Sequence record: MZ234031.1
Reading direction: 5' to 3' (one strand)
DNA from: Escherichia phage vB_EcoM-CHD94UKE2
Length of the DNA stretch: 64,000 nt
Position 1 is the stretch's first letter. Every line of letters starts with the position of its first letter. The position numbers and the translations under genes are program-made. Below the pieces are notes generated by a model. That model was not told the DNA's origin. It ran no database searches and worked only from the letters and a program-made list of their open reading frames with translations. Of this stretch, positions 6,323 to 63,456 are shown piece by piece.

Positions 6323-6475
6323 ATGACGTTAGAAGAGGCTAAAGCAAAAGCAAATGAAGCATTGGATTTGCTTCTTAAAATTGGCAGTAAAATGATGGAA
6401 GAAAATGAGAAATATATCCAGGAAAACAAAATTCCTGACGGCCCATTAGTAGGCAAGAGGAAATCACATGATTGA
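6323..6475 (+). CDS. Hypothetical small protein, 50 aa
   Basis: ATG 6323 to TGA 6473-6475, read by hand. Confidence 0.3.
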
Positions 6476-6938
6476 AGTAGCAAAACATTATTCAATAGAA
6501 TTTATGTCTAAAGAAGGTAAATCAGTAAATACACTTGACAAAAAGTGCTCGTTAATTATTCCTTTAGCAGAAAATCCGGATATTTTAATTAAAGATATAA
6601 AAGAAAGAAAATACCCAGAAAATGTTATTCTAATTATAAAGCATACTGAAGATATTTTGCAGAATACTGATTCACCGTTTTCTTCTTCTGAAGCTTTAAC
6701 TATTAAAGGCTATAAAAGAGCTCATGAATATGGTCTTTTTGACCTGTTTGAAGACGATAAAGTTAAATTAGCGAGTCAACCTTCTAAAAGTAAAACATTC
6801 ATTATTGAAGATATTAAAGATATAAATGCATTCGTTAAGATGGTCTGGGCTCATTTTGATGTTGGACTACGCTGGAGAATGTCCGAAGAAGAAAGAAAGA
6901 TTATTGAAGCTAATCGTCAATTTGGTTTTTATCGCTAG
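6468..6938 (+). CDS. Hypothetical early protein, 156 aa
   Basis: ORF with ATGA overlap to upstream ORF. Confidence 0.5.
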
Positions 6939-6946
6939 GAATTAAT

Positions 6947-7129
6947 ATGGATTTATTTGAGATGTTAGAAGATAATCATTCTACGAATATCCAGAATGAT
7001 TCTAGTGATTATAAGAAAGAGTACCGTATAGTATTACAGAATTATGGAATTGAAGCCCCAGATGCTCTTCTAGAAGAACTAGCTTCATACCATCTTGACC
7101 CTCCGCCTTGGGCTCCTTGGGCAAAATAA
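6947..7129 (+). CDS. Hypothetical protein, 60 aa
   Basis: ORF. Confidence 0.4.
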   Translation: MDLFEMLEDNHSTNIQNDSSDYKKEYRIVLQNYGIEAPDALLEELASYHLDPPPWAPWAK

Positions 7130-9600: not shown

Positions 9601-10916
9601 CATTTGATGATTTGACAGAAGGCCAGAAAAATGCCTTTAACATCGTTATGAGGGCTATTAAAGAAAAGAAACATCATGTAACTATTAATGGACCTGCTGG
9701 TACTGGTAAGACTACTCTTACTAAGTTCATCATTGAAGCTTTAATATCTACGGGTGAAACTGGTATTATTTTAGCAGCTCCTACACATGCAGCTAAAAAG
9801 ATTCTTTCAAAACTGTCGGGGAAAGAAGCGAGTACTATTCACAGTATTCTTAAAATTAACCCAGTTACGTATGAAGAAAACGTTCTTTTTGAACAGAAGG
9901 AAGTACCAGATTTAGCTAAATGCAGGGTATTAATCTGCGACGAAGCGTCAATGTATGATAGAAAGCTATTTAAAATTCTGCTTTCAACTATTCCACCTTG
10001 GTGTACTATAATTGGAATAGGTGATAATAAGCAAATTAGACCTGTTGATCCAGGAGAAAATACTGCTTATATCAGTCCATTCTTTACACATAAAGATTTT
10101 TATCAGTGTGAACTCACTGAAGTTAAACGCAGTAATGCTCCTATTATTGATGTAGCTACTGACGTTCGTAACGGTAAGTGGATTTATGATAAAGTTGTTG
10201 ACGGGCATGGAGTACGTGGATTTACTGGTGATACCGCTTTACGCGATTTTATGGTAAATTATTTTTCAATCGTCAAATCTCTAGATGATTTGTTTGAAAA
10301 TCGCGTAATGGCATTTACGAATAAATCTGTTGACAAGTTAAATAGCATTATTCGTAAAAAGATTTTTGAAACTGATAAAGATTTTATTGTCGGTGAAATT
10401 ATTGTAATGCAGGAACCATTAATTAAAACATATAAAATTGATGGAAAGCCTGTGTCAGAAATTATTTTTAATAACGGACAATTAGTTCGTATTATAGAAG
10501 CAGAGTATACATCAACATTTGTTAAAGCTCGTGGTGTTTCTGGAGAATACTTAATTCGTCATTGGGATTTAACAGTAGAAACTTACGGCGATGATGAATA
10601 TTATCGTGAAAAGATTAAAATAATTTCATCTGATGAAGAGCTATATAAGTTTAACCTATTTTTAGGTAAAACAGCAGAAACTTATAAAAACTGGAATAAG
10701 GGTGGAAAAGCTCCATGGAGTGATTTTTGGGATGCTAAATCACAGTTTAGTAAAGTGAAAGCACTTCCTGCATCAACATTCCATAAAGCGCAGGGTATGT
10801 CTGTAGACCGTGCTTTCATCTATACACCTTGTATTCATTATGCAGATGCTGAATTGGCTCAACAACTTCTTTATGTTGGTGTTACCCGTGGTCGTTATGA
10901 CGTATTTTATGTGTGA
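9597..10916 (+). CDS. dda: Dda DNA helicase (SF1B)
   Basis: 439 aa; Walker A GPAGTGKT; matches remembered T4 Dda length. Confidence 0.85.
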   Translation: MTFDDLTEGQKNAFNIVMRAIKEKKHHVTINGPAGTGKTTLTKFIIEALISTGETGIILAAPTHAAKKILSKLSGKEASTIHSILKINPVTYEENVLFEQKEVPDLAKCRVLICDEASMYDRKLFKILLSTIPPWCTIIGIGDNKQIRPVDPGENTAYISPFFTHKDFYQCELTEVKRSNAPIIDVATDVRNGKWIYDKVVDGHGVRGFTGDTALRDFMVNYFSIVKSLDDLFENRVMAFTNKSVDKLNSIIRKKIFETDKDFIVGEIIVMQEPLIKTYKIDGKPVSEIIFNNGQLVRIIEAEYTSTFVKARGVSGEYLIRHWDLTVETYGDDEYYREKIKIISSDEELYKFNLFLGKTAETYKNWNKGGKAPWSDFWDAKSQFSKVKALPASTFHKAQGMSVDRAFIYTPCIHYADAELAQQLLYVGVTRGRYDVFYV

Positions 10917-10922
10917 GGATAT

Positions 10923-11183
10923 ATGATTAACATCAATTCAAAATATTTAAATCGTCTAATAGATTGTATAAGGAAGCATACTAATAAGCAAGATAATCTC
11001 GATGTTATGGTAACAGGAGCTGAGCTCCTTCATAAGCTTTATCTTATAAGTGATACTATATTAGCAATTAAACGAATTGAAAAACAATCATATCACAGTA
11101 ATACAGATACGGTAATTACACTAGATGAAAGTGTCTGTAAATTACTAATTAAATTTGAGGAAGCTATTCGTGGAAATAACTAA
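10923..11183 (+). CDS. Hypothetical small protein, 86 aa
   Basis: ORF. Confidence 0.4.
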   Translation: MININSKYLNRLIDCIRKHTNKQDNLDVMVTGAELLHKLYLISDTILAIKRIEKQSYHSNTDTVITLDESVCKLLIKFEEAIRGNN

Positions 11184-11415
11184 AGACCAGTTTTATCTGC
11201 TTCAAGATAAAGTGAGCGAAATTTATGAAATAGCTTATAGTAAAAATCGTGAAACTGTAAAAATTGAATCTAGTAAGTTGATGCTTCAATTAGAAGAAAT
11301 TGAACGAGATTTAATTGCGTTAGAATTCTTTTGTGGTGAAGTGAAAACTGTCACAATCAGTGATTATGTTTTAGGTGAAATTAGCTATCTTTATAAGGCG
11401 ATTATTAATGATTGA
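11155..11415 (+). CDS. Hypothetical small protein (start uncertain; TTG 11155 or GTG 11170)
   Basis: ORF; C-terminal segment paralogous to next ORF (TISDYVLGEISYLYKAI vs YIQDYTVGQIRDLARKI). Confidence 0.4.
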   Translation: MRKLFVEITKDQFYLLQDKVSEIYEIAYSKNRETVKIESSKLMLQLEEIERDLIALEFFCGEVKTVTISDYVLGEISYLYKAIIND

Positions 11416-12339: not shown

Positions 12340-12369
12340 GTTTACTTCCTCGGTTAGTTGTGGTATTAT
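12340..12369 (+). promoter_or_regulatory. T4-type early promoter
   Basis: GTTTACTTCC ... TGGTATTAT. Confidence 0.5.
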
Positions 12370-12396
12370 AACACCATAGCTACTGAGGATAATAAA

Positions 12397-12897
12397 ATGA
12401 AAATTTATCGTGTTGAATCATCGTTTAGTATTCTTGATTATGAAGATGCTATAACAATACGTCGAAATCTTTGTGTTCAAATAACGCCGTACAGGAGTAT
12501 AATAGATTCATGGAGCGAAGAGTGGCTATTACACGTAGGTTATGACAGACCTAATTTTATGCATCATAGCGATAATAATAAAAGAATTCCTTTACCACAC
12601 GAAGATAAACTATTAGTTAAAAACGCTAATATAGTAATTAATACTAAGTTCAAGAAAGATTATGTTGGAGTAGAATATCATATTCCAGGATGGTTTATAG
12701 CTCTTTATCATTTTGCTTTCGCTAGCGAATATGATATGATGAGATGGTTCACACGAGAAGAGCGTGAAGAATTAGCTTCGAAAGGATTTTATCTTGCTGT
12801 ATACGAAGTACCAGATGACCAAGTTATCGTTGGCGGGCATCAAGTAATGTTCCGTAAATCCCATGCTGAACTTGTAGATTTTATTGAAATGAGATAA
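12397..12897 (+). CDS. Hypothetical early protein, about 166 aa
   Basis: ATG 12397 with SD GAGGATAA; track ORF starts further upstream. Confidence 0.5.
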   Translation: MKIYRVESSFSILDYEDAITIRRNLCVQITPYRSIIDSWSEEWLLHVGYDRPNFMHHSDNNKRIPLPHEDKLLVKNANIVINTKFKKDYVGVEYHIPGWFIALYHFAFASEYDMMRWFTREEREELASKGFYLAVYEVPDDQVIVGGHQVMFRKSHAELVDFIEMR

Positions 12898-14994: not shown

Positions 14995-15366
14995 ATGTTT
15001 AAAATCGGTAAGAAATATCGCATTCGCGAAGGTGAAGAAAAGAAATATCTATTTTCTGCTATTTATAGGAATGGTTCTATTAATGCTGTAATATCTACAA
15101 GCGAATTTATCGTTGAAGATATGAAAGGTAATAATGTTACAATGATTAGTACAGCATCTGGAAATGACGGAAAAATTCTTCACAGTTTTCAGAGTAATGT
15201 TCTAATTTATGATGAAGAATTTGACTTCTTCGAAGAAGTTCCCGAAGGTTTTGCTTTTGAATGCACTATCACTATGAAATCTGGTGACCCTCTTTCTTTT
15301 ACAGTTAAAGATGAAGGAAGTCGCTTGAGAATTATTAGTCTTCTTCAAGCCATTAAATTTAAGTGA
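14995..15366 (+). CDS. Hypothetical protein, 123 aa
   Basis: ORF. Confidence 0.45.
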   Translation: MFKIGKKYRIREGEEKKYLFSAIYRNGSINAVISTSEFIVEDMKGNNVTMISTASGNDGKILHSFQSNVLIYDEEFDFFEEVPEGFAFECTITMKSGDPLSFTVKDEGSRLRIISLLQAIKFK

Positions 15367-19976: not shown

Positions 19977-20915
19977 ATGTACAATATTAAATGCCTGACC
20001 AAAAACGAACAAGCTGAAATTGTTAAACTGTATTCAAGTGGTAATTACACCCAGCAGGAATTGGCTGATTGGCAAGGTGTATCGGTTGACACAATCCGTC
20101 GTGTTTTGAAAAATGCTGAAGAAGCAGAACGCTCTAAAGTTACTATTAGCGGTGACATTACAGTTAAAGTTAATAGCGATGCAGTTATTGCTCCAGTTGC
20201 TAAATCTGACATTATTTGGAATGCATCTAAAAAATTCATTTCAATTACTGTTGACGGTGTAACTTATAACGCAACTCCTAATACTCATTCAAACTTCCAG
20301 GAAATTCTTAATCTGCTTGTAGCGGATAAGTTGGAAGAAGCGGCACAAAAAATTAATGTTCGTCGCGCTGTTGAAAAATATATTTCCGGCGATGTTCGAA
20401 TTGAAGGTGGAAGCTTATTCTATCAAAATATTGAATTGCGGTCTGGTTTGGTTGATCGTATTCTTGATTCGATGGAAAAAGGCGAAAACTTTGAATTTTA
20501 TTTTCCGTTCTTGAAAAATCTGCTGGAAAACCCAAGCCAGAAAGCGGTATCTCGACTCTTTGATTTCTTGGTAGCAAACGATATTGAAATTACAGAAGAT
20601 GGTTACTTCTATGCTTGGAAAGTAGTTCGTAGCAATTACTTTGATTGTCACTCAAACACTTTTGATAACAGTCCTGGTAAAGTAGTTAAAATGCCGCGTA
20701 CTCGTGTGAATGACGATGATACGCAAACTTGTTCCCGCGGTTTGCATGTATGTTCTAAATCTTATATTCGTCACTTTGGCAGTTCAACCAGCCGAGTCGT
20801 AAAAGTTAAAGTACATCCGCGTGATGTAGTATCAATTCCGATTGATTACAACGATGCTAAAATGCGTACCTGCCAATACGAAGTAGTTGAAGACGTTACT
20901 GAACAATTTAAATAA
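19977..20915 (+). CDS. rIIB: rIIB protein
   Basis: 312 aa, same length as T4 rIIB; adjacent to rIIA. Confidence 0.8.
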   Translation: MYNIKCLTKNEQAEIVKLYSSGNYTQQELADWQGVSVDTIRRVLKNAEEAERSKVTISGDITVKVNSDAVIAPVAKSDIIWNASKKFISITVDGVTYNATPNTHSNFQEILNLLVADKLEEAAQKINVRRAVEKYISGDVRIEGGSLFYQNIELRSGLVDRILDSMEKGENFEFYFPFLKNLLENPSQKAVSRLFDFLVANDIEITEDGYFYAWKVVRSNYFDCHSNTFDNSPGKVVKMPRTRVNDDDTQTCSRGLHVCSKSYIRHFGSSTSRVVKVKVHPRDVVSIPIDYNDAKMRTCQYEVVEDVTEQFK

Positions 20916-20929
20916 GGGCTTCGGCCCTT
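20914..20929 (+). other. UUCG-loop hairpin right after the rIIB stop (no T-run)
   Basis: AAGGGC-TTCG-GCCCTT. Confidence 0.5.
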
Positions 20930-20943
20930 AACTAAGGAAAATT

Positions 20944-21138
20944 ATGTTAGGTTATCAAGCACGAGTAAAAGAAGAATACGATCAATTAATGCTCAAAATT
21001 AATGCACTTAGCAATTTTTTAGAAAGCACAAAGTTTCTAACGGTTAGTGCAGTTGAGCAAGAATTGCTACTTTCGCAGTTTATCTCAATGAAATCTTACG
21101 CAGATTGTTTAGAAAAAAGAATTGCACAATTCAAATAA
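20944..21138 (+). CDS. Hypothetical small protein, 64 aa
   Basis: ORF with SD AAGGAAA. Confidence 0.4.
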   Translation: MLGYQARVKEEYDQLMLKINALSNFLESTKFLTVSAVEQELLLSQFISMKSYADCLEKRIAQFK

Positions 21139-21141
21139 AAT

Positions 21142-21164
21142 AAGGGCTTCGGCCCTTTTGTTTT
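21142..21164 (+). terminator. Rho-independent terminator
   Basis: AAGGGC-TTCG-GCCCTT then TTTGTTTT. Confidence 0.7.
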
Positions 21165-21201
21165 AAGGGAAATTATGATTCCGACATAAAGGAAAGTTTA
21201 A

Positions 21202-21759
21202 ATGCAGAAAACGAATCCGGGTTTGCAGAGACTATTTCAGATTCCGTCATTTACCCTATCGAACAGTGACTTGACTAGTGAAATGAAGGTCAAAATTGCT
21301 GATACTGCAAGATACTCTTTAAAACAAAACCCGAACCAGGATAAAGCAGAAGTTATCGAAAGATGTCGTATCGCTGTGTACGCAGAGTTTTTTGTGGCAG
21401 ATTGGCTAAGAGGGTATGTTAACAAAGGCCAAGAGGATGTTAATGACCCGTATACATACGCATGGGATGTACTGGCGCATCCAAAATACTGCGGGCTTCG
21501 TGTAGAAGTTAAGACACATCAAACTGACTCACGTTGGATTTCGGTAACAACAGGATGCAGCGGAGAGTATCCATATGGTTCTGGAATAAATCTAGGGCCC
21601 ATTCTAAATCATCAAGTCGCTGACTGTATAATTATATTCAACACTAAAGAAATTCATCCAGGTGTCATCCAGTACACTCCGAAGTTCATCGGTGACAGAG
21701 AAGACCTTCGTAAGGTTGTAAGAAAAAGCAACTACAATGGATGGTATCTTTCCATTTAA
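21202..21759 (+). CDS. denB: Endonuclease IV DenB-like
   Basis: 185 aa, same length as T4 DenB; position next to rIIB; assignment from synteny and size. Confidence 0.5.
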   Translation: MQKTNPGLQRLFQIPSFTLSNSDLTSEMKVKIADTARYSLKQNPNQDKAEVIERCRIAVYAEFFVADWLRGYVNKGQEDVNDPYTYAWDVLAHPKYCGLRVEVKTHQTDSRWISVTTGCSGEYPYGSGINLGPILNHQVADCIIIFNTKEIHPGVIQYTPKFIGDREDLRKVVRKSNYNGWYLSI

Positions 21760-21775
21760 AAATTTTCACAAAACG

Positions 21776-21805
21776 GTTTACATACCACAAGGACTGTGGT
21801 ACTAT
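21776..21805 (+). promoter_or_regulatory. T4-type early promoter
   Basis: GTTTACATACCACAAGGACTGTGGTACTAT; preceded by conserved TTTTCACAAAACG block. Confidence 0.55.
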
Positions 21806-21832
21806 ACAACTATCAGCTACGGAGGAGTAAAA

Positions 21833-22096
21833 ATGAAATTTAAATTTTATTACGCTAAACATAAAATTACCGGTGAATTTATTGCATTTACGACTTCAAC
21901 TACAGATGAAGGAGATATTTTTACTGCAGTATTTTTATCAAAATGGGAATCAGATCAACCTTACTTATCATCACGTGAAGATCTCCAACGATTAGTTAAT
22001 GGAGAATATAATGATTCATGGTCATATTTAGTCCATGATTGTGTTAAAAAGGCAATAAAACAAAAACACTTGGAAATCGTTGAGATTGAACTATGA
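21833..22096 (+). CDS. Hypothetical protein, about 87 aa
   Basis: ATG 21833 after SD GGAGGAG. Confidence 0.45.
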   Translation: MKFKFYYAKHKITGEFIAFTTSTTDEGDIFTAVFLSKWESDQPYLSSREDLQRLVNGEYNDSWSYLVHDCVKKAIKQKHLEIVEIEL

Positions 22097-22179
22097 GTTC
22101 ATTATGGTGGTGTTTCGTTTGGTTAATTAGTATTCCATTAATTTGTTTAACATTTACTTTTGTGATGAGGTTATTATGA
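22093..22179 (+). CDS. Small hydrophobic peptide, 28 aa
   Basis: MSSLWWCFVWLISIPLICLTFTFVMRLL; ATGA overlaps with both neighbours. Confidence 0.35.
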   Translation: MSSLWWCFVWLISIPLICLTFTFVMRLL

Positions 22180-22274
22180 AAATTTTGAATTCTGTGCTTA
22201 TTGCTTGTGCGTGGTGGGTTGCGCAAGTTTCAGCAGTAGTAGTTGGTATTCACATTTATTACGAATATTTTTAA
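22176..22274 (+). CDS. Small hydrophobic peptide, 32 aa
   Basis: MKILNSVLIACAWWVAQVSAVVVGIHIYYEYF; ATGA overlap. Confidence 0.35.
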   Translation: MKILNSVLIACAWWVAQVSAVVVGIHIYYEYF

Positions 22275-22282
22275 AAAAGTTG

Positions 22283-22311
22283 TTTACAAGACTGTTCTTC
22301 CGTGGTATTAT
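22283..22311 (+). promoter_or_regulatory. T4-type early promoter
   Basis: GTTTACAAGACTGTTCTTCCGTGGTATTAT. Confidence 0.5.
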
Positions 22312-22339
22312 TACCCTATCAACTACGGAGGAACAGAAA

Positions 22340-22453
22340 ATGAAAAAGATTGTTAAAGCTATATGGAATGTAGTTATAATACTAATAGTTTTGAGTATAT
22401 TCCCAATCGTTTTAATGATTGATGTATTAAACGCTTACTTTGGATTTATGTGA
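22340..22453 (+). CDS. Small membrane peptide, 37 aa
   Basis: ATG 22340 after GGAGGAACAG; hydrophobic core IWNVVIILIVLSIFPIVLMI. Confidence 0.4.
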   Translation: MKKIVKAIWNVVIILIVLSIFPIVLMIDVLNAYFGFM

Positions 22454-22460
22454 GGAAAAT

Positions 22461-22658
22461 ATGAAGCGTAAACGCAGTGCTTTTACATTTATTGAATGGT
22501 TTTTCGATAATATTTTTCCGGCTTTATTCATTTTCATGCTGATTTTTGCTTTAGGTTCAGTTGTAGTTGGAATCTATTTGATGACAGTAGTCGGAATTGA
22601 TATTCATCAAAATGGTTTAAAATCCGTAGTTGAAACAATTTGGAACGGTGTAAAATGA
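22461..22658 (+). CDS. Small membrane protein, about 65 aa
   Basis: ATG 22461 in frame within track ORF 22440..22658. Confidence 0.4.
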   Translation: MKRKRSAFTFIEWFFDNIFPALFIFMLIFALGSVVVGIYLMTVVGIDIHQNGLKSVVETIWNGVK

Positions 22659-22765
22659 TGAATTTGCTGAGCGGTTGGTTTTATATTCTTATGTTTTACA
22701 TTGGCGCAAATTTTCCATATTGGATGGGATGGTCAACAACTGCGTTTGGATTTTATACTCCTTGA
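22655..22765 (+). CDS. Small hydrophobic peptide, 36 aa
   Basis: MMNLLSGWFYILMFYIGANFPYWMGW...; ATGA overlap. Confidence 0.3.
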   Translation: MMNLLSGWFYILMFYIGANFPYWMGWSTTAFGFYTP

Positions 22766-22773
22766 GGTGAATT

Positions 22774-22989
22774 ATGAAAATCTTTAAAGATGTAAAAGTT
22801 GGTGAAATTTTCTGTTTAGATAACGGTGATCAGTTAATTCGTATTTCACCTCTTAAGAGCACTAGCGAGAAACCGACAGTTAACGCTACTTTAGCAAACA
22901 ATAGTAATGAACGTTTCTGTATTGAAAATGATACTGAAACTTATACCGTAGAAGAGTTTTGGGAATTGAGCGTCGACTGCGACGATTAA
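22774..22989 (+). CDS. Hypothetical protein, 71 aa
   Basis: ORF with SD. Confidence 0.45.
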   Translation: MKIFKDVKVGEIFCLDNGDQLIRISPLKSTSEKPTVNATLANNSNERFCIENDTETYTVEEFWELSVDCDD

Positions 22990-23049
22990 TTTAATGGCCG
23001 TGTGTATTCATGCGGCCTTGGAGTAGAAAATAATTTAGAGGAAATTAAT

Positions 23050-23508
23050 ATGAAATACATGACTGTTACTGATCTGAATAATGCAGGCGCTACCGTTATT
23101 GGTACAATCAAGAACGGTGAATGGTTTTTGGGAGTTCCACATAAAGATATTTTATCTAAACCTGGATTTTACTTTTTAGTAAGTAAATTAGATGGTCGTC
23201 CATTTAGTAATCCATGTGTGTCTGCACGATTTTATGTAGGTAATCAGCGTTCTAAGCAAGGATTTAGTGCGGTTCTAAGTCATATTCGTCAACGTCGGTC
23301 TCAGCTTGCGCGTACTATTGCAAATAACAATGTTCCATACACAGTATTTTATCTGCCTGCTTCTAAGATGAAACCTCTGACTACGGGATTTGGAAAAGGT
23401 CAGTTAGCTTTGGCGTTTATTCGTAATCATCATTCTGAGTATCAAACACTTGAAGAAATGAACCGTATGTTGGCTGATAACTTTAAATTCGTTTTGCAGG
23501 CATATTAA
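23050..23508 (+). CDS. ndd: Nucleoid disruption protein Ndd-like
   Basis: ATG 23050 gives 152 aa (T4 Ndd about 151 aa); located just before stp as in T4. Confidence 0.5.
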
Positions 23509-23588
23509 TGAGTAATTTCCACAACGAACATGTGATGCAGTTCTATCGTAATAATTTTAAAACTAAAGGCGTCTTCGGACGCCAGTGA
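23508..23588 (+). CDS. stp: Stp peptide (activator of host PrrC anticodon nuclease), 26 aa
   Basis: [26 protein letters not shown]; 26 aa as for T4 Stp; start overlaps ndd stop (TAATG). Confidence 0.7.
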
Positions 23589-23595
23589 GGAAAAT

Positions 23596-23754
23596 ATAAA
23601 TATTGCAAAATTATTAGGAGTTATTTCATTTATTTGTTGGATAGTAGCATGTGTTTTAACTATCTGTATTGATGTCAGCAGTGTGTTTTCGCAAGCTTTA
23701 GCTCAGGGTATGTGTGCATATTTAACATTTGTGTTGTTATCTACTAATGATTAA
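23596..23754 (+). CDS. ac: ac-like small membrane protein; no canonical start codon (ATA at the expected start)
   Basis: Hydrophobic frame (N)INIAKLLGVISFICWIVACVLTICIDVSS... opens after TGA 23533-23535 with no ATG/GTG/TTG; SD GAGG 23587-23590 is 5 nt before ATA 23596. Confidence 0.35.
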   Translation: MNIAKLLGVISFICWIVACVLTICIDVSSVFSQALAQGMCAYLTFVLLSTND

Positions 23755-23887
23755 GAAAATCTTGGGCTATTCATTAGCCCTTGCTATTTTATTGATAGCA
23801 TTATATTACGGAATAATGTTCGGATTAATTCAAGTCGTGCTTTTCATTTCTGATGTTATTATGGCACTACATTCACTAGTATGGTAA
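23747..23887 (+). CDS. Small membrane peptide, 46 aa
   Basis: MIKKILGYSLALAILLIALYYGIMFGLIQVVLFISDVIMALHSLVW. Confidence 0.35.
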   Translation: MIKKILGYSLALAILLIALYYGIMFGLIQVVLFISDVIMALHSLVW

Positions 23888-23891
23888 ATTT

Positions 23892-25220
23892 ATGCAACTG
23901 AATAATCGTGATTTAAAAAGTATCATTGATAATGAAGCATTGGCTTATGCTATGTACACGGTTGAAAATCGTGCCATTCCAAATATGATTGACGGATTTA
24001 AGCCAGTTCAACGATTTGTTATTGCTCGAGCTCTTGATTTGGCACGAGGAAATAAAGATAAGTTTCACAAACTCGCTTCTATCGCAGGCGGTGTAGCGGA
24101 CCTTGGATATCATCATGGTGAAAACTCTGCGCAAGACGCAGGTGCTTTGATGGCTAACACTTGGAATAATAACTTTCCTCTGTTAGACGGTCAAGGAAAC
24201 TTTGGTTCTCGTACTGTCCAAAAGGCAGCAGCAAGTCGTTATATTTTTGCTCGTGTAAGTAAAAATTTCTATAACGTATATAAAGATACTGAATATGCTC
24301 CAGTACATCAAGATAAAGAACACATTCCGCCTGCTTTCTATTTGCCTATTATTCCTACTGTTCTTCTTAATGGCGTTTCCGGTATTGCAACTGGTTATGC
24401 AACTTACATTCTTCCTCATAGTGTTTCTTCTGTCAAGAAAGCTGTACTGCAAGCTCTTCAAGGAAAGAAAGTAACTAAACCGAAGGTAGAATTCCCAGAA
24501 TTTCGTGGTGAAGTCGTTGAAATTGATGGGCAATATGAAATTCGTGGAACATATAAGTTTACTTCACGAACTCAAATGCATATCACTGAGATTCCATATA
24601 AGTATGATCGTGAAACTTATGTGAGTAAAATCTTAGACCCGCTTGAAGATAAAGGCTTCATTACATGGGATGATGCTTGTGGTGAGCATGGCTTTGGCTT
24701 CAAAGTTAAATTCCGAAAAGAATACTCTTTGAGCGATAATGAAGAAGAACGCCATGCAAAAATTATGAAAGACTTCGGGTTGATTGAGCGTCGTTCCCAG
24801 AATATTACCGTCATTAATGAGAAAGGAAAGCTGCAAGTTTACGATAATGTAGTTGATTTAATCAAAGACTTCGTTGAAGTTCGTAAAACTTATGTCCAAA
24901 AACGAATTGATAACAAAATCAAAGAAACTGAATCAGCATTTCGTTTAGCTTTTGCCAAGGCACATTTCATTAAGAAAGTAATTTCAGGTGAAATTGTTGT
25001 ACAAGGTAAAACTCGCAAAGAACTGACCGAAGAACTTTCTAAAATTGATATGTATTCTTCTTATGTTGATAAACTAGTTGGAATGAACATTTTTCATATG
25101 ACTTCCGACGAAGCAAAGAAACTTGCTGAAGAAGCTAAAGCCAAAAAAGAAGAAAACGAATATTGGAAAACTACTGATGTAGTTACAGAATACACCAAAG
25201 ATTTAGAGGAAATCAAATGA
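23892..25220 (+). CDS. 52: DNA topoisomerase II medium subunit gp52 (GyrA-like)
   Basis: 442 aa, same length as T4 gp52; GyrA-type N-terminal region. Confidence 0.85.
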   Translation: MQLNNRDLKSIIDNEALAYAMYTVENRAIPNMIDGFKPVQRFVIARALDLARGNKDKFHKLASIAGGVADLGYHHGENSAQDAGALMANTWNNNFPLLDGQGNFGSRTVQKAAASRYIFARVSKNFYNVYKDTEYAPVHQDKEHIPPAFYLPIIPTVLLNGVSGIATGYATYILPHSVSSVKKAVLQALQGKKVTKPKVEFPEFRGEVVEIDGQYEIRGTYKFTSRTQMHITEIPYKYDRETYVSKILDPLEDKGFITWDDACGEHGFGFKVKFRKEYSLSDNEEERHAKIMKDFGLIERRSQNITVINEKGKLQVYDNVVDLIKDFVEVRKTYVQKRIDNKIKETESAFRLAFAKAHFIKKVISGEIVVQGKTRKELTEELSKIDMYSSYVDKLVGMNIFHMTSDEAKKLAEEAKAKKEENEYWKTTDVVTEYTKDLEEIK

Positions 25221-25366
25221 GTCCATTCATTGGTATCACAAGCGCTGCATTAGTATCTGGTGGCATTTTACTGGCGGGTTTAGGTGTTGTTCCTGCCGTA
25301 GCAGGAGGTCTTCTTGCGTTCGGAATTCAACGTGTTATCATGACAGTTATCACAGTCATGCAGTAA
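25217..25366 (+). CDS. Small membrane protein, 49 aa
   Basis: Gly/Ala/Val-rich hydrophobic ORF overlapping the gene 52 stop; read by hand. Confidence 0.35.
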   Translation: MSPFIGITSAALVSGGILLAGLGVVPAVAGGLLAFGIQRVIMTVITVMQ

Positions 25367-25371
25367 TTTTA

Positions 25372-25398
25372 GGGAGAGCCTCGGCTCTCCCTTTTTAT
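25372..25398 (+). terminator. Rho-independent terminator
   Basis: GGGAGAGCC-TC-GGCTCTCCC then TTTTTATTT. Confidence 0.75.
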
Positions 25399-25421
25399 TT
25401 CAAAAATTTTTTCACAAAACG

Positions 25422-25451
25422 GTTTACAACCAAAGCATACTGTGGTACTAT
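25422..25451 (+). promoter_or_regulatory. T4-type early promoter
   Basis: GTTTACAACCAAAGCATACTGTGGTACTAT; preceded by TTTTCACAAAACG block. Confidence 0.55.
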
Positions 25452-25500
25452 ACAACTATCAAATAAATGAACTGAAACAAACAACCCGGAGATACAAAAA

Positions 25501-25728
25501 ATGAAATTTAAAATCGAAAACGAAATCGTTAAAGCTAAAAATGCTCTGACTGCTAACAAACTGGTTGTAGATGGTATTGAATATGATATCTGTGGAGTTC
25601 GTGAAGAAAAACCTGGTGTTCTGACTTTCTTCACAATGATTTTTAAATTTAAAGGTGACACAGAATTCAAACAGTTTGATTTTGCCCATGAAGACGAAAT
25701 CGAAGTTCGTAATCTGAACATTAAGTAA
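25501..25728 (+). CDS. Hypothetical protein, 75 aa
   Basis: ORF; 5' UTR shares TATCAAATAAATGAACTGAAAC with the motA leader. Confidence 0.45.
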   Translation: MKFKIENEIVKAKNALTANKLVVDGIEYDICGVREEKPGVLTFFTMIFKFKGDTEFKQFDFAHEDEIEVRNLNIK

Positions 25729-25767
25729 GTACTTTATTAGAGCTCTTGAAAAAGAGTGCAAAAAAGT

Positions 25768-25796
25768 GTTTACTTCTGCTTTAAACATGATACTAT
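25768..25796 (+). promoter_or_regulatory. T4-type early promoter upstream of motA
   Basis: GTTTACTTCTGCTTTAAACATGATACTAT. Confidence 0.5.
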
Positions 25797-25833
25797 AGAC
25801 CTATCAAATAAATGAACTGAAACGGAGATTAAA

Positions 25834-26469
25834 ATGTCTAAAGTAACTTACATCATCAAAGCTTCTAACGATATTCTGAATGAAAAAACTGCTGCGATTT
25901 TAATTACCATTGCTAAGAAAGATTTCATTACAGCTGCAGAAGTTCGTGAGGTGCATCCAGATTTAGGCAATGCAGTAGTTAATAGTAATATTGGGGTATT
26001 GATTAAAAAAGGCCTGGTGGAGAAATCTGGTGATGGATTAATCATTACTGGTGAAGCTCAGGATATTATTTCAAATGCAGCAACTTTATACGCACAGGAA
26101 AACGCTCCGGAACTGCTGAAAAAACGAGCAACTCGTAAAGCTCGCGAAATTACTTCTGATATGGAAGAAGATAAAGACTTCATGTTAAAACTTTTAGATG
26201 AAAATGGATTTGTTCTTAAAAAGGTTGAAACTTACCGCAGTAACTATCTCGCTATTTTAGAAAAACGCACTCACGGAATTCGTAATTTTGAAATTAACAA
26301 CAATGGAAATATGCGAATTTTTGGATACAAAATGATGGAACATCATATTCAGAAATTTACTGACATCGGAATGTCATGTAAAATCGCTAAAAACGGTAAT
26401 GTGTATCTTGACATTAAACGTTCGGCAGAAAACATTGAAGCTGTAATCACTGTAGCATCTGAACTGTGA
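25834..26469 (+). CDS. motA: Middle-transcription activator MotA
   Basis: 211 aa, same length as T4 MotA; location between 52 and asiA. Confidence 0.7.
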   Translation: MSKVTYIIKASNDILNEKTAAILITIAKKDFITAAEVREVHPDLGNAVVNSNIGVLIKKGLVEKSGDGLIITGEAQDIISNAATLYAQENAPELLKKRATRKAREITSDMEEDKDFMLKLLDENGFVLKKVETYRSNYLAILEKRTHGIRNFEINNNGNMRIFGYKMMEHHIQKFTDIGMSCKIAKNGNVYLDIKRSAENIEAVITVASEL

Positions 26470-26479
26470 GGAATAAATA

Positions 26480-26809
26480 ATGAACAAGTTAGAAATTGTC
26501 AATGAACTTCGTCGTTGTGTAGAACCTACTCAAGAGGGTTGGGACATCTGGTACCATGGAGCTTATCTTGGAACTATCGTAAAGATTAAGACTGGCAAAT
26601 ACATGATTATTCGTGAAAGTAAAGATGCTCCAGTAGGTATTCGCAATAATTTCATGGCAGCTATAAGTTCCTTTATGGATTCAGCTTACGAAATTTACCT
26701 TGCTGATTATAAAGAATTCCATGAATCTCAACCAGTTATTCGCTCAATTGGTGTTAACAAAGCTCAACAGAAAACTTTATGGCAACGTATTAAAGGATGG
26801 TTTAAATGA
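26480..26809 (+). CDS. Hypothetical protein, 109 aa
   Basis: ORF. Confidence 0.45.
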   Translation: MNKLEIVNELRRCVEPTQEGWDIWYHGAYLGTIVKIKTGKYMIIRESKDAPVGIRNNFMAAISSFMDSAYEIYLADYKEFHESQPVIRSIGVNKAQQKTLWQRIKGWFK

Positions 26810-26961
26810 AAACATTTAAAATTGTCGTAGAATTTTATAACGGCGAAGGTGTAGTCCATCTTAAAGCGGCCAACCAGTTTGATGCGGTAAGAGTATATTG
26901 TCAATGCTTTGAAAGTTCTAAACAAGCTATAAAAATTAAAAGTGTTGAGGAAACCAAATGA
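26806..26961 (+). CDS. Hypothetical small protein, 51 aa
   Basis: ATGA-coupled ORF read by hand. Confidence 0.3.
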
Positions 26962-27425
26962 AAACCTTCAAAGAGCGTCTTGAATTATTAGACCTGGCTT
27001 TATTACGTGAAACTCCAGAAAGTCTAGCAGCTAAATTACAGGCCTATGGCGACTACACCGAATATACGGAAGAGGATGTTTTAGAAGAGGTTCCTGAAAT
27101 CTGTTGGCAAGTAGCTCATTGGAACAATAATGAAAAATATCAACGTCGAATTGTGTGTGCAGCCAACCGCTTTAAGTTAAAAGATGGTGGGACTCTGGTT
27201 ATTCCTGGTGCTCGTCATTATTCTAAAGATATGGCTGAAGTTCTTGACCAGGTAAGTGATAAACTTGTATCAGACCATGTTTGTGGTGAAGACCAAGGAT
27301 TTATTGACCAGTATAGCAATTACTGGACACGTGAAGAAGCAATGATTATTGCAACTTACGCTGGACAAGTGCGTATTGAACGTGGTGGTAGTGAAAAAGA
27401 ACTTTACTCTGAGGACCTTTACTAA
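26958..27425 (+). CDS. Hypothetical protein, 155 aa
   Basis: ORF; acidic termini, conserved-looking core CAANRF ... VIPGARH. Confidence 0.45.
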
Positions 27426-27721
27426 TGAATATTAAAAAGTTTCAAATTGATGGAATTAAGAATCAAATCCAGGCGTTGGAATATGCCAATAAAATGATGT
27501 CAACTAATTGGGGAATTTATACAAATGAACCGGCATTTCAGTTCTGTGATATGGAATTCACTAAAAAGCTCGTAGGAAAAGATTATGTATGCCCATTTAG
27601 TTTTCCGGTAAATGGAATGCTAAAACCTGCTTTACGCGATCTTTATATTGCGATGAACGAAGAAATGATAAAAGAATTAAAACGTCAACTGAAGGTGATT
27701 CAATTTGGCCAGGGAAATTAA
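27425..27721 (+). CDS. Hypothetical protein, 98 aa
   Basis: ORF. Confidence 0.45.
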   Translation: MNIKKFQIDGIKNQIQALEYANKMMSTNWGIYTNEPAFQFCDMEFTKKLVGKDYVCPFSFPVNGMLKPALRDLYIAMNEEMIKELKRQLKVIQFGQGN

Positions 27722-27923
27722 TTCAAAATCTGATTATTTTAATTCTCTCAATGATAAAGATAAAAATCTAATACGGCATTTTATTGTTGAGATGGGATAT
27801 ACTGATACACGTGATTTAAGAGAACATATATTTGAATGTGGTGTAGCTAAAAAGTTTTCATTCACATGCAAATGTTTAAGAGAGGTAATTCAGCATTATG
27901 AACAATTTAGTCGCAAAACATAA
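27705..27923 (+). CDS. Hypothetical protein, 72 aa (TTG start per track)
   Basis: ORF; start codon uncertain. Confidence 0.35.
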   Translation: MAREINSKSDYFNSLNDKDKNLIRHFIVEMGYTDTRDLREHIFECGVAKKFSFTCKCLREVIQHYEQFSRKT

Positions 27924-28006
27924 TTTTAATAAAGCTTCTGTCCATAAAGATAAGAAGAAAGCGTTTAAAGAATCTAATCGCAAACAGAAACATAAGGGGA
28001 AGGTCT

Positions 28007-29407: not shown

Positions 29408-30190
29408 TTATACTCTTGGACCATATATTGCTCCAACATTTTGCCATGTTGGAGCGGACCCTATGACAGCATAACCAGCAGCGCCGCCATTATATTCAGA
29501 TCCTTGACCGCGAATATTGCATCTACCTCCCGCGGAACCTACTTCACCACCGTTTCCACCATTATAGATACCATTCACGGATCCTGAGCCAGGTGCAGAA
29601 ATAGTACCGCCAGTCGCGCCTGATTGCATATCAATAGATCCTCCTGGCGCACCAAAAGGACGACCGCCACCACCACCAAAGGTCAATCTCATTTGTGAAA
29701 AAGGAGAATAATATCCGCCGCCGCCACCGCCGCCACCGCCTGCAATAGCTCCGCCATTATTAATTCTTAGTCTCCCACCAATATCGTTTTGAATACAATG
29801 ACCTCCAGCTGAGCCAGGACTATTGCTACCGCCATTACCTCCACGACCATACATCGTTACGCCATGTATATTTAACTGAACATATTCATTTGGTGTATCT
29901 CCGTACATGAAGAATAAAGGAACATCTTTAGAATAAGAAACGATATCACCAACAATATTGAATACAATAGGTGCACCGCCAGCTTCAAAGCATCTATCAC
30001 GGAACCACTGACCATTAAAATTGTGGTTTGCTCCTACAGTATGAATAATTTCTCGTGAGCGACCTGCAAATTGACTCATCCAGCAAGGAACACCCAATCT
30101 TAATTGACCAGCCGCTTGACTCATCCAGCGCTGTCCTGTTTCATTTGCGGCTGAACTTCCAATCCAACCAGGAACACCAACTACTGCCAT
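29408..30190 (-). CDS. 38: Long tail fibre adhesin gp38, T2-type with glycine-rich motifs
   Basis: 260 aa; conserved N-terminus [14 protein letters not shown]...; poly-Gly blocks ([22 protein letters not shown]). Confidence 0.8.
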
Positions 30191-33865: not shown

Positions 33866-33873
33866 AAGAAAAA

Positions 33874-33891
33874 GGGAACCCGAAGGCTCCC
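33874..33891 (-). other. Intercistronic UUCG hairpin after gene 35
   Basis: Minus strand GGGAGCC-UUCG-GGUUCCC (one G-U pair) directly after gene 35 stop. Confidence 0.55.
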
Positions 33892-50071: not shown

Positions 50072-51659
<1,588 letters not shown>

Positions 51660-63248: not shown

Positions 63249-63433
63249 AAGCTTACTTAGAAACAATTGTCATTGCTCAAAAAGAAGGTGGAGATGTTTC
63301 TACTTCTGTATCACAAGTCATTCTCGAATTTGTAGATGCATACGCTTATAATAAATTTACAGAAACATTTGATGCCTATGAAAAAGGACCAAAGTTTGAA
63401 ATATATCGTACTCTCTTACCACTAGATTACTAA
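63245..63433 (+). CDS. Hypothetical protein, 62 aa
   Basis: ORF. Confidence 0.4.
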   Translation: MKAYLETIVIAQKEGGDVSTSVSQVILEFVDAYAYNKFTETFDAYEKGPKFEIYRTLLPLDY

Positions 63434-63456
63434 AGGCCTTCGGGCCTTTAATTTTA
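63433..63456 (+). terminator. Hairpin terminator (UUCG loop)
   Basis: AAGGCC-TTCG-GGCCTT then TAATTTT. Confidence 0.6.

What the first reader, a model, noticed from the sequence alone, without database searches (positions are those of the whole stretch)
23596..23754. ac-like membrane ORF lacks a canonical start codon (ATA where ATG is expected)
The hydrophobic frame ...NIAKLLGVISFICWIVACVLTICIDVSS... opens after a stop at 23533-23535 and contains no ATG, GTG or TTG before the hydrophobic core. A good SD (GAGG at 23587-23590) sits 5 nt before ATA at 23596. Either this is a start-codon point mutation (an ac-null, acriflavine-resistant genotype as selected in laboratory T-even stocks), rare ATA initiation, or a sequencing error.
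Basis: partly seen in the sequence, partly recalled or inferred. Interest (0 to 1): 0.5.

Follow-up and report, generated by a model that had tools for sequence, protein, structure and literature searches.

The report
Start-codon mutation in phage ac gene
A T4-like wastewater coliphage carries a single G-to-A change that turns the ATG start of its small, dispensable membrane gene ac into ATA. This very probably silences the gene, an ordinary loss-of-function allele whose only unusual feature is that the same base change spells a perfect T4 late-promoter box.

Summary
The Ac reading frame (23596-23754) begins with ATA, 5 nt after GAGG. It has an in-frame TGA upstream (23533-35) and no ATG, GTG or TTG before GTG at 23683.

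It is a derived point mutation, not a family trait. T4, the 99.8%-identical phage WilhelmHis, 427 INPHARED records, all 11 true ac loci found in IMG/VR and metagenomes, and 9 of 10 places encoding the identical Ndd protein have ATG.

ATA occurs only in one lineage from Loose et al. 2021. The window looks like the wastewater ancestor CHD94UKE2. G3F7 and G3F10 are descendants. PM123 is a lab-bred recombinant that acquired ATA through a crossover inside ac. Sequencing error is therefore unlikely.

AUA initiates at about 0.02-3% of AUG in E. coli, so Ac is probably nearly absent. The predicted phenotype is acriflavine resistance; this was not tested. No acridine selection or laboratory T-even stock is involved.

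Two other natural phages (SP21535, Sf25) have lost the ac start by deletion, so ac loss recurs.

New point: the mutation converts TATGAATA into TATAAATA (23595-23602), the exact T4 late-promoter consensus. This could add late transcription of 52.1 and gene 52.

Interest is low: a new allele of a known kind.

The parts
23050..23508 (+). ndd (nucleoid disruption protein, 152 aa). Its stop overlaps the stp start (TAATG).
   Evidence: Annotated in G3F7, G3F10 and WilhelmHis. The exact protein is found on 22 contigs.
23508..23588 (+). stp (26 aa, PrrC anticodon-nuclease activator). Its TGA stop at 23586-88 overlaps the ac Shine-Dalgarno sequence and ends 7 nt before the ac start position.
   Evidence: ORF list. 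Pfam PF08133 E = 4e-20. T4 annotation.
23533..23535 (+). In-frame TGA that closes the ac frame upstream.
23568..23583 (+). GGCGUC-UUCG-GACGCC tetraloop hairpin in the 3' end of stp, just upstream of the ac SD. The SD and the start are left unpaired.
   Evidence: RNA fold centroid. The terminator scan picked up the same stem on the opposite strand.
23587..23590 (+). Shine-Dalgarno GAGG of ac, identical in the ATG-bearing relatives.
   Evidence: Annotated as an RBS in phage U115.
23596..23598 (+). Mutated ac initiation codon: ATA here, ATG in relatives. The derived base is A at 23598.
23596..23754 (+). ac reading frame (52 codons plus TAA), otherwise intact and identical to the WilhelmHis ac.
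23595..23602 (+). TATAAATA, the exact T4 late-promoter (gp55) box, created by the same G>A change (wild type TATGAATA). The sequence downstream is AT-rich. The predicted start of late transcription, near 23608-23611, is my estimate.
   Evidence: Consensus definition from PMC2988020. Promoter activity was not tested.
23683..23685 (+). First canonical in-frame start (GTG) downstream. It would encode only the C-terminal 23 residues and has no SD.
23747..23887 (+). 52.1 (46 aa, DUF7396 membrane protein). Its ATG overlaps the end of ac (ATGATTAA) and no SD precedes it, so its translation is probably coupled to that of ac.
   Evidence: T4 and WilhelmHis annotation. Pfam PF24129 E = 5e-22. Sequence. 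The coupling is inferred.
23892..25220 (+). Gene 52 (topoisomerase II medium subunit, 442 aa), the next gene downstream.

Best explanation
The window carries a real, recently derived G>A transition at 23598. It changes the initiation codon of the conserved, non-essential early gene ac from ATG to ATA. The Shine-Dalgarno sequence, the spacing and the whole coding sequence are untouched.

AUA is a near-cognate codon that E. coli ribosomes reject almost completely. Ac synthesis is therefore expected to fall to a few percent of normal or less, which makes this a null or strongly hypomorphic ac allele.

Ac is a 51-52-residue two-helix membrane protein. It makes T-even-infected cells accumulate acridines, and a recent proposal is that it does so by blocking AcrAB-TolC efflux. 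The predicted phenotype of this allele is therefore acriflavine resistance, with no cost in ordinary culture.

The 52.1 start overlaps the ac stop and has no SD of its own, so 52.1 translation may also drop.

The allele arose once, in the lineage of a wastewater phage most probably identical to CHD94UKE2 of Loose et al. 2021. It was inherited clonally by G3F7 and G3F10. It entered the lab-bred recombinant PM123 through a crossover inside ac.

Shown: the mutation, its polarity, its rarity, its single origin and its reality. Inferred: loss of Ac protein, the drug phenotype, and polarity on 52.1.
For: Sequence facts:
- ATA, the SD, the upstream stop and the absence of any alternative start are read directly.
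- ATG at the homologous codon in T4, WilhelmHis and U115.
- ATG in 5 of 5 IMG/VR contigs and 6 of 6 true ac metagenome contigs.
- ATG in 9 of 10 places encoding the identical Ndd; the tenth is PM123.
- In INPHARED, 427 records have ATG and 3 have ATA.

Polarity of the change: WilhelmHis is 99.81% identical over 31 kb. It differs at only 4 positions in 20000-28000, and one of them is 23598.

Single origin: PM123 matches the window against its other parents CHD16UKE1 and G3G7 at every informative site from 22625 to 23598. It switches parent between 23605 and 23674, inside ac.

The allele predates the breeding: the window has gp38 Q166, like WilhelmHis. G3F7, G3F10 and PM123 have R166, the change that the paper says arose during breeding on a CHD94UKE2-derived gp38.

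The gene is normally under constraint:
- 459 of 462 records give a full-length Ac match.
- In 9 sampled alleles, 8 of 11 variable sites leave the protein unchanged. The only amino-acid changes are I13V, A27V and M1I.

The gene is dispensable: T4 ac deletion and point mutants grow normally and are acriflavine-resistant (bioRxiv 10.1101/2025.06.30.662393).

Independent natural losses exist. SP21535 has a 12-bp deletion that removes the start codon. Sf25 has a 134-bp deletion that removes the 3' end of stp and the first ~32 codons of ac.

Strength of AUA as a start: 1-2%, 0.1-3% and 0.02-3% of AUG in three reporter systems (bioRxiv 10.1101/063800).
Against: - No expression or phenotype data exist for these phages.
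- The SD and spacing are optimal, and the stp stop lies only 7 nt upstream. Termination-reinitiation could therefore raise use of AUA, or of the AUU at codon 3, above reporter values.
- It is unknown how little Ac is enough for function.
- The identification of the window with CHD94UKE2 is indirect, because MZ234031 is not in the searchable collection.
- All ATA genomes come from one laboratory, so a mutation acquired during early laboratory propagation cannot be told apart from one present in the wastewater.
Confidence: 0.8

Rival explanations
1. Leaky but sufficient initiation. AUA at 23596, or AUU at 23602, is used at a low level, helped by the strong SD and by ribosomes terminating on stp 7 nt upstream. 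Enough Ac is made for the gene to remain functional, giving a hypomorph with a wild-type phenotype.
For: - The SD GAGG and the 5-nt spacing are intact, and the start region is unstructured after the UUCG hairpin.
- AUA gives measurable initiation in E. coli.
- The coding sequence shows no secondary decay.
Against: - AUA yields only 0.02-3% of AUG.
- No other of about 440 ac genes examined uses a non-ATG start, so the family shows no tolerance of weak starts.
- The lack of decay is uninformative, because the allele is very young: there are 4 differences in 8 kb from WilhelmHis.
Confidence: 0.12
2. Sequencing or assembly artefact: the true base is G.
For: All ATA records come from one laboratory and one pipeline, Illumina with SPAdes. 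The site lies in an A/T-rich stretch.
Against: - The same base appears in three separately deposited genomes besides the window.
- One of them is PM123, where it sits on a recombinant haplotype with a different downstream ac sequence.
- Sister phages from the same pipeline (CHD16UKE1, G3G7, PM105, PM108, G3F6) read ATG or are annotated with an intact ac gene.
- The site is not a homopolymer, and the change is a simple transition.
Confidence: 0.03
3. Adaptive change. The mutation was selected, either because losing Ac is advantageous on efflux-proficient, multidrug-resistant ST131 hosts or in drug- and dye-laden wastewater or urine, or because the new TATAAATA box gives useful late transcription of 52.1 and gene 52.
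For: - Three independent natural lesions remove the ac start: this SNP, the 12-bp deletion in SP21535 and the 134-bp deletion in Sf25.
- The SNP creates the exact late-promoter consensus. In this window, 4 of the 8 other copies lie 24-35 nt upstream of the late genes soc, 36, 34 and alt.
- PM123, the most virulent bred phage, retained the ATA segment from the minor parent.
Against: - Only 1 of the 6 bred phages named in the paper carries ATA.
- ac-disrupted records make up about 1% of the total, as expected for neutral loss of a dispensable gene.
- One start-codon hit among 59 differences from WilhelmHis is not statistically remarkable.
- TATAAATA occurs at chance frequency in the window, 9 against 9.6 expected.
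- No fitness data exist.
Confidence: 0.08

Closest known systems
Classical ac (T4) / pr (T2) acridine-resistant mutants of T-even phages
   Same: The same gene is affected, and the lesion is expected to abolish the 51-52-aa Ac protein. The gene is non-essential, so the phage is fully viable. Literature: Silver 1960s; Rappaport et al. 1974; Arvizu Santamaria et al. 2025.
   Different: Those mutants were selected on acridine plates in laboratory stocks. This allele sits in a wastewater-derived therapeutic-candidate lineage with no known acridine exposure. It is a start-codon change rather than a coding or deletion lesion. Its phenotype has not been tested.
Natural ac lesions in Shigella phages SP21535 (PQ615101) and Sf25 (MF327009)
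   Same: These are environmental Tequatrovirus isolates that have lost the ac initiation region while keeping 52.1 and gene 52 intact. In both records nothing is annotated at the ac position.
   Different: They carry deletions (12 bp and 134 bp; the latter also truncates stp), not a point mutation. They are irreversible and do not create a TATAAATA box.
Genes that genuinely use near-cognate AUN starts, for example E. coli infC (AUU). This example is from my own knowledge.
   Same: A near-cognate AUN codon sits behind a good SD.
   Different: In those genes the unusual start is conserved across homologues and serves autoregulation. Here it is a private allele against about 440 ATG homologues.
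T4 late promoters (gp55/gp33/gp45-dependent TATAAATA box)
   Same: The match to the 8-bp consensus is exact and the downstream segment is AT-rich. No -35 element is needed (PMC2988020).
   Different: The box lies inside an early gene, is absent from all relatives (TATGAATA), and is not followed by a late gene. Activity is untested.

Membership tests
T4 Ac protein family (phrog_2501; Pfam Phage_T4_Ac PF26944) | Full-length sequence similarity to Ac | tested here: met
   With M restored, phrog_2501 E = 2.7e-24 over residues 1-51 of 52. tblastn finds 462 phage records, 451 of them at 90% identity or more. Identical ATG-bearing alleles are labelled PF26944 in precomputed hits. The local Pfam copy gave no hit.
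T4 Ac protein family (phrog_2501; Pfam Phage_T4_Ac PF26944) | Conserved position ndd - stp - ac - 52.1 - 52 on the early strand | tested here: met
   Same order and overlaps as in T4 NC_000866 and WilhelmHis.
T4 Ac protein family (phrog_2501; Pfam Phage_T4_Ac PF26944) | Small protein with two hydrophobic helices | tested here: met
   An 11-residue Kyte-Doolittle window shows a strong hydrophobic stretch over residues ~3-25 and a second, weaker one over ~38-48. This agrees with the ESMfold two-helix model reported in bioRxiv 10.1101/2025.06.30.662393.
T4 Ac protein family (phrog_2501; Pfam Phage_T4_Ac PF26944) | Translatable gene: canonical start codon behind the SD | tested here: not met
   ATA at 23596. 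No ATG, GTG or TTG between the upstream stop and codon 30.
T4 Ac protein family (phrog_2501; Pfam Phage_T4_Ac PF26944) | Confers acridine sensitivity on the infected cell | not testable with these tools
   Needs plating on acriflavine.
ac-minus (acridine-resistant) loss-of-function alleles | A lesion in ac that prevents synthesis of functional Ac | tested here: inconclusive
   Loss of the start codon is shown. The expected reduction of 30-fold to several-thousand-fold rests on reporter data for AUA, not on a measurement at this locus.
ac-minus (acridine-resistant) loss-of-function alleles | Acriflavine-resistant plaque formation | not testable with these tools
   No phenotype is reported for CHD94UKE2, G3F7, G3F10 or PM123 in the passages of PMC8614997 that I read.
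Genes with a conserved non-AUG (AUN) initiation codon | The unusual start codon is shared by homologues | tested here: not met
   427 ATG records against 3 ATA records. ATG in T4, in the IMG/VR and metagenome contigs, and in the contigs with identical Ndd.
T4 late promoter | 8-bp TATAAATA box with an AT-rich segment downstream and no -35 requirement | tested here: met
   Exact match at 23595-23602, followed by ttgcaaaattatta. Definition taken from PMC2988020.
T4 late promoter | gp55-dependent RNA 5' end about one helical turn downstream of the box; late timing | not testable with these tools
   Needs 5' end mapping in late infection.
T4 late promoter | Conserved in relatives and placed upstream of a late gene | tested here: not met
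   Relatives have TATGAATA. The downstream genes (52.1, 52) lie in the early-gene block on the strand of the neighbouring early genes. That they are early or middle genes is from my own knowledge of T4.

The most novel reading that the evidence does not exclude
The single G>A change acts in two ways. It silences the early membrane gene ac. By turning TATGAATA into the perfect gp55 box TATAAATA, it also creates a new late promoter that drives late-phase transcription of 52.1 and the topoisomerase gene 52. The combination, or the loss of a putative AcrAB-TolC inhibitor on multidrug-resistant ST131 hosts, was favoured during isolation or breeding. This would explain why the most virulent bred phage, PM123, kept this short segment from its minor parent.
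Probability: 0.1. Interest if true: 0.45.

Novelty: new member of a known kind. Interest (0 to 1): 0.2.

Why it matters
The main value is practical.

- **Annotation.** The deposited relatives G3F7, G3F10 and PM123 have no ac or stp gene call, and their 52.1 is extended to a spurious TTG start. Anyone comparing gene content would read this as gene absence rather than a one-base knockout.
- **A ready-made test pair.** These phages are phage-therapy candidates. If Ac blocks AcrAB-TolC efflux, as recently proposed, an ac-silent phage would not sensitise infected multidrug-resistant hosts to efflux substrates. WilhelmHis (ATG) and this lineage (ATA) differ at only 4 positions across the 8 kb around ac and are 99.8% identical over 31 kb. 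They form a natural, though not isogenic, pair for testing what Ac does.
- **Dispensability.** Together with SP21535 and Sf25, the allele shows that ac loss recurs at about 1% among sequenced Tequatroviruses. This is consistent with dispensability despite strong sequence conservation.
- **A cheap promoter experiment.** The coincidental creation of a consensus late promoter offers a simple test of whether any TATAAATA is sufficient for late transcription in vivo.

Tried and rejected
- **Metagenome 'ATC' variants.** Three of nine metagenome matches to the degenerate pattern had ATC at the variable base. Translation showed they are unrelated genes that match by chance (for example ...LSEENINIQLITTSE...), so I discarded them.
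- **Apparent 'T' in 101117BS1.** This phage seemed to have T at 23598 in the SNP table. Reading the sequence showed an alignment artefact caused by an extra ac paralogue; its true ac starts with ATG.
- **CHD94UKE2 (MZ234031).** The record could not be fetched, and the paper's supplements do not mention G3F7 or G3F10. I therefore inferred the window's identity from the gp38 Q166 state.
- **Looking for further ac-less relatives.** Two look-ups of the TTG-extended 52.1 product found nothing on record.
- **Pfam.** The local copy has no hit for Ac. PHROGs and the precomputed PF26944 labels were used instead.
- **RNA genes.** Rfam at gathering thresholds and ARAGORN found nothing in the 64-kb window. 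No RNA element explains the locus.
- **stp-ac fusion.** I considered a fusion by frameshift or readthrough. ac is in the +1 frame relative to stp, and nothing resembling a recoding signal is evident in the sequence I read (no dedicated search was run). I rejected this as unsupported.
- **Enrichment of TATAAATA.** There is none: 9 copies against 9.6 expected. Only the placement of the other copies is informative.

Full report
**1. What is in the sequence**

The region is the ndd - stp - ac - 52.1 - 52 block of a T4-like phage (genus Tequatrovirus), all on the + strand.
- ndd ends at 23508.
- stp (26 aa) runs 23508-23588.
- The Ac frame runs 23596-23754.
- 52.1 starts at the ATG at 23747, overlapping the end of ac.
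- Gene 52 runs 23892-25220.

- ATA is at 23596-98.
- GAGG is at 23587-90, 5 nt upstream.
- An in-frame TGA is at 23533-35.
- None of the 20 codons in between is ATG, GTG or TTG.
- The first canonical in-frame start is GTG at 23683. It would give only the last 23 residues.

With Met restored, the product matches phrog_2501 from end to end (E = 2.7e-24). It differs from T4 Ac at the start codon (ATA for ATG), at A27V and by one extra Thr near the C-terminus. A simple hydropathy scan shows two hydrophobic segments.

**2. ATA is a derived private allele, not the normal start of ac**

T4 (NC_000866), WilhelmHis and U115 read ...CAGTGAGGAAAATATGAATAT... at the homologous site.

I used 55-nt queries with the variable base at position 28. 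With this design every 28-nt megablast seed must contain that base.
- The ATA version hits exactly 3 of 50,697 phage records: G3F7, G3F10 and PM123.
- The ATG version hits 427 records.

Other collections agree.
- All 5 IMG/VR contigs have ATG.
- All 6 genuine ac contigs from metagenomes have ATG.
- The three apparent ATC variants are unrelated genes.
- Among 10 distinct places that encode exactly the same Ndd protein, six of them metagenome assemblies, 9 have ATG. The tenth is PM123.

WilhelmHis, a Rhine isolate from the BASEL collection, is 99.81% identical to the window over 31 kb. It differs at only four positions between 20000 and 28000, and one of these is 23598. The ancestral base is therefore G, and the change is a G>A transition.

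**3. Where the allele comes from, and why it is not an error**

The window is 100% identical to G3F7 and G3F10 over its first 25 kb. It is not byte-identical to either over its full length.
- It lacks G3F7's 28-bp deletion in gp38 (29605-29632).
- It has T at 29694 where both have C.

Position 29694 is the second base of gp38 codon 166.
- The window and WilhelmHis have CAA (Gln).
- G3F7, G3F10 and PM123 have CGA (Arg).

These accessions belong to Loose et al. 2021 (PMC8614997). That study isolated wastewater phages on ST131 uropathogenic E. coli. A cocktail of CHD16UKE1, G3G7, CHD94UKE2 and 101117BS1 was then 'bred' for 20 rounds. [quoted passage not shown]

The window therefore has the ancestral state. 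It is most simply CHD94UKE2 itself (MZ234031, not in the searchable collection) or a genome identical to it here. G3F7 and G3F10 are post-breeding descendants.

A site-by-site comparison shows how PM123 acquired ATA.
- PM123 matches the window, and not CHD16UKE1 or G3G7, at every informative site from 22625 to 23598.
- It switches to the CHD16UKE1/G3G7 type between 23605 and 23674, inside ac. This gives ATA plus Ala27.
- It returns to the window type from about 25381. This fits the paper's statement that CDS 118-123 are identical to CHD94UKE2.

So ATA arose once, was already in the ancestor stock, and moved into PM123 by recombination. The same base was thus read in three separately deposited genomes besides the window, one of them a recombinant. 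Sister phages from the same pipeline read ATG or carry an annotated intact ac gene. A sequencing artefact is very unlikely.

I cannot distinguish a mutation present in the wastewater virion from one fixed during the first laboratory amplifications.

**4. What it most likely does**

*Established from the literature*
- ac is non-essential.
- T4 deletion, insertion and point mutants plate at about 10^10 PFU/ml on acriflavine, against about 10^6 for wild type.
- Expressing Ac in E. coli sensitises the cells to acriflavine and ampicillin.
- The authors propose that Ac blocks AcrAB-TolC efflux (bioRxiv 10.1101/2025.06.30.662393; echoed in PMC13250531).
- In E. coli, AUA initiates at 1-2%, 0.1-3% or 0.02-3% of AUG, depending on the reporter (bioRxiv 10.1101/063800).

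*Inference*

Ac synthesis in this phage is reduced by at least ~30-fold and possibly by three orders of magnitude or more. The phage should behave as ac-minus, that is, acriflavine-resistant.

*Caveats*
- The SD and spacing are ideal, and a UUCG-tetraloop hairpin (23568-83) leaves them single-stranded.
- The stp stop codon lies 7 nt upstream, so reinitiating ribosomes might use AUA, or the AUU at codon 3, somewhat better than de novo initiation would. This reinitiation point rests on my own knowledge.

*Possible effect on 52.1*

52.1 has no SD (tgttatctactaATG) and overlaps the ac stop. Its translation is probably coupled to ac and may also fall. This is an inference.

**5. Is ac loss unusual?**

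The gene is strongly conserved.
- 459 of 462 records give a full-length tblastn match.
- In the nine 52-codon alleles I sampled, 8 of 11 variable sites leave the protein unchanged. The only amino-acid changes are I13V, A27V and this M1I.

Two of the lowest-ranked rows in the sampled listing turned out to be independent natural lesions of the same region.
- Shigella phage SP21535 (wastewater, China) has a 12-bp deletion. It removes ATATGAATATTG, which includes the start codon.
- Shigella phage Sf25 (Red Cedar River) has a 134-bp deletion. It removes the 3' end of stp and the first ~32 codons of ac.

Loss of ac therefore recurs at roughly 1% of sequenced Tequatroviruses. This is what one expects for a dispensable gene, and it needs no special selection. 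One start-codon hit among the 59 differences between the window and WilhelmHis is not statistically remarkable.

**6.

The G>A change converts TATGAATA into TATAAATA at 23595-23602 on the + strand.

TATAAATA is the T4 late-promoter box. It is an 8-bp element about one helical turn upstream of the start site, with an AT-rich segment downstream and no -35 element. It is matched perfectly at 32 of the 50 listed T4 late promoters (PMC2988020).

The window holds nine copies, which is the chance expectation of 9.6. Their placement is informative.
- Four lie 24-35 nt upstream of the late genes soc (4713 +), 36 (33858 -), 34 (38925 -) and alt (63455 +).
- Two lie 140-150 nt upstream of rIII and gene 32.
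- Two are antisense inside genes.
- The ninth is the ac site.

The downstream sequence here (ttgcaaaattatta) is AT-rich. The mutation may therefore also create a late promoter firing at about 23608-23611 into the truncated ac, 52.1 and gene 52. Whether it is active, and whether that matters, is untested. I treat it as the most novel reading not excluded, with probability about 0.1 that it is both functional and selected.

**7. Comparison with known things, and verdict**

This is the known gene ac carrying a new allele of a known class, the ac-minus loss-of-function mutants. It differs from the classical mutants in four ways.
- Its origin: wastewater and phage-therapy breeding, with no acridine step in the passages of the source paper I read.
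- Its lesion type: loss of the start codon.
- Its phenotype has not been tested.
- It coincidentally spells a late-promoter box.

It is not a case of conserved non-AUG initiation.

The practical consequence is an annotation gap. In the three GenBank records, ac and stp are not called, and 52.1 is extended to a spurious TTG at 23729.

Interest is low (0.2).

Noticed in passing
window 29408-30190 (- strand; gp38 adhesin), positions 29605-29632 and 29694: The window differs from G3F10 only at 29694. There gp38 codon 166 is CAA (Gln) in the window and CGA (Arg) in G3F10, G3F7 and PM123. G3F7 additionally has a 28-bp deletion (29605-29632) that splits gp38 into two CDSs. Q166R is the mutation that Loose et al. 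report as arising during breeding. The window therefore looks like the unbred ancestor, probably CHD94UKE2.
   Followed up: yes
window 20514 (rIIB, 19977-20915 +): A G>A change gives rIIB E180K. It is private to the window among six compared phages: PM123, CHD16UKE1, G3G7, 101117BS1 and WilhelmHis all have G. I did not assess whether it affects the rII (rapid-lysis) phenotype.
   Followed up: partly
L023 (Escherichia phage 101117BS1, MZ234018) 10639-11217: This relative carries an extra 57-aa hydrophobic ORF between ndd and stp. It also has a second, divergent ac paralogue (MKFVHGIAFFCWFFLCIGTVITGETSVFLQASAQGVLAILSLFAYIGSKNS) immediately upstream of the canonical ac. Both paralogues have ATG starts and SDs.
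   Followed up: partly
L026 (Shigella phage SP21535) and L027 (Shigella phage Sf25), aligned to window 23560-23690: These are independent natural deletions of the ac start. SP21535 has lost 12 bp. Sf25 has lost 134 bp, which also truncates stp. 52.1 and gene 52 are intact in both, and neither record annotates a gene at the ac position.
   Followed up: yes
window 23568-23583, 63433-63448, and about 33866-33890 (- strand): C(UUCG)G-type tetraloop hairpins recur at gene boundaries. One lies in the 3' end of stp, just before the ac SD. Two more lie immediately upstream of the TATAAATA boxes of alt and gene 36, where they look like terminators of the preceding unit.
   Followed up: partly
window 6323-7129 (+): In the G3F7 and G3F10 records, three small ORFs next to the ModA/ModB ADP-ribosyltransferase genes are named 'molybdenum ABC transporter, periplasmic molybdenum-binding protein ModA'. 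This is almost certainly a gene-name collision in automated annotation, not a real transporter.
   Followed up: no
window 12729 (ORF 12358-12897 +): Relative to the window, WilhelmHis has a 5-bp insertion here. It splits an ORF that is intact in the window and in PM123 into two overlapping CDSs (bas35_0122 and bas35_0123).
   Followed up: partly
window 23729-23887 (+): In the ATA-bearing records, the gene caller extends 52.1 to a TTG at 23729 (52 aa) and omits stp and ac. In ATG-bearing relatives, 52.1 is called from the ATG at 23747 (46 aa), as in T4.
   Followed up: yes
window 15060-15067 (-) and 51116-51123 (-): Two exact TATAAATA boxes lie antisense inside early genes (a hypothetical ORF at 14995-15366, and RNA ligase). 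They could drive late antisense transcripts, or they could be silent chance matches.
   Followed up: no
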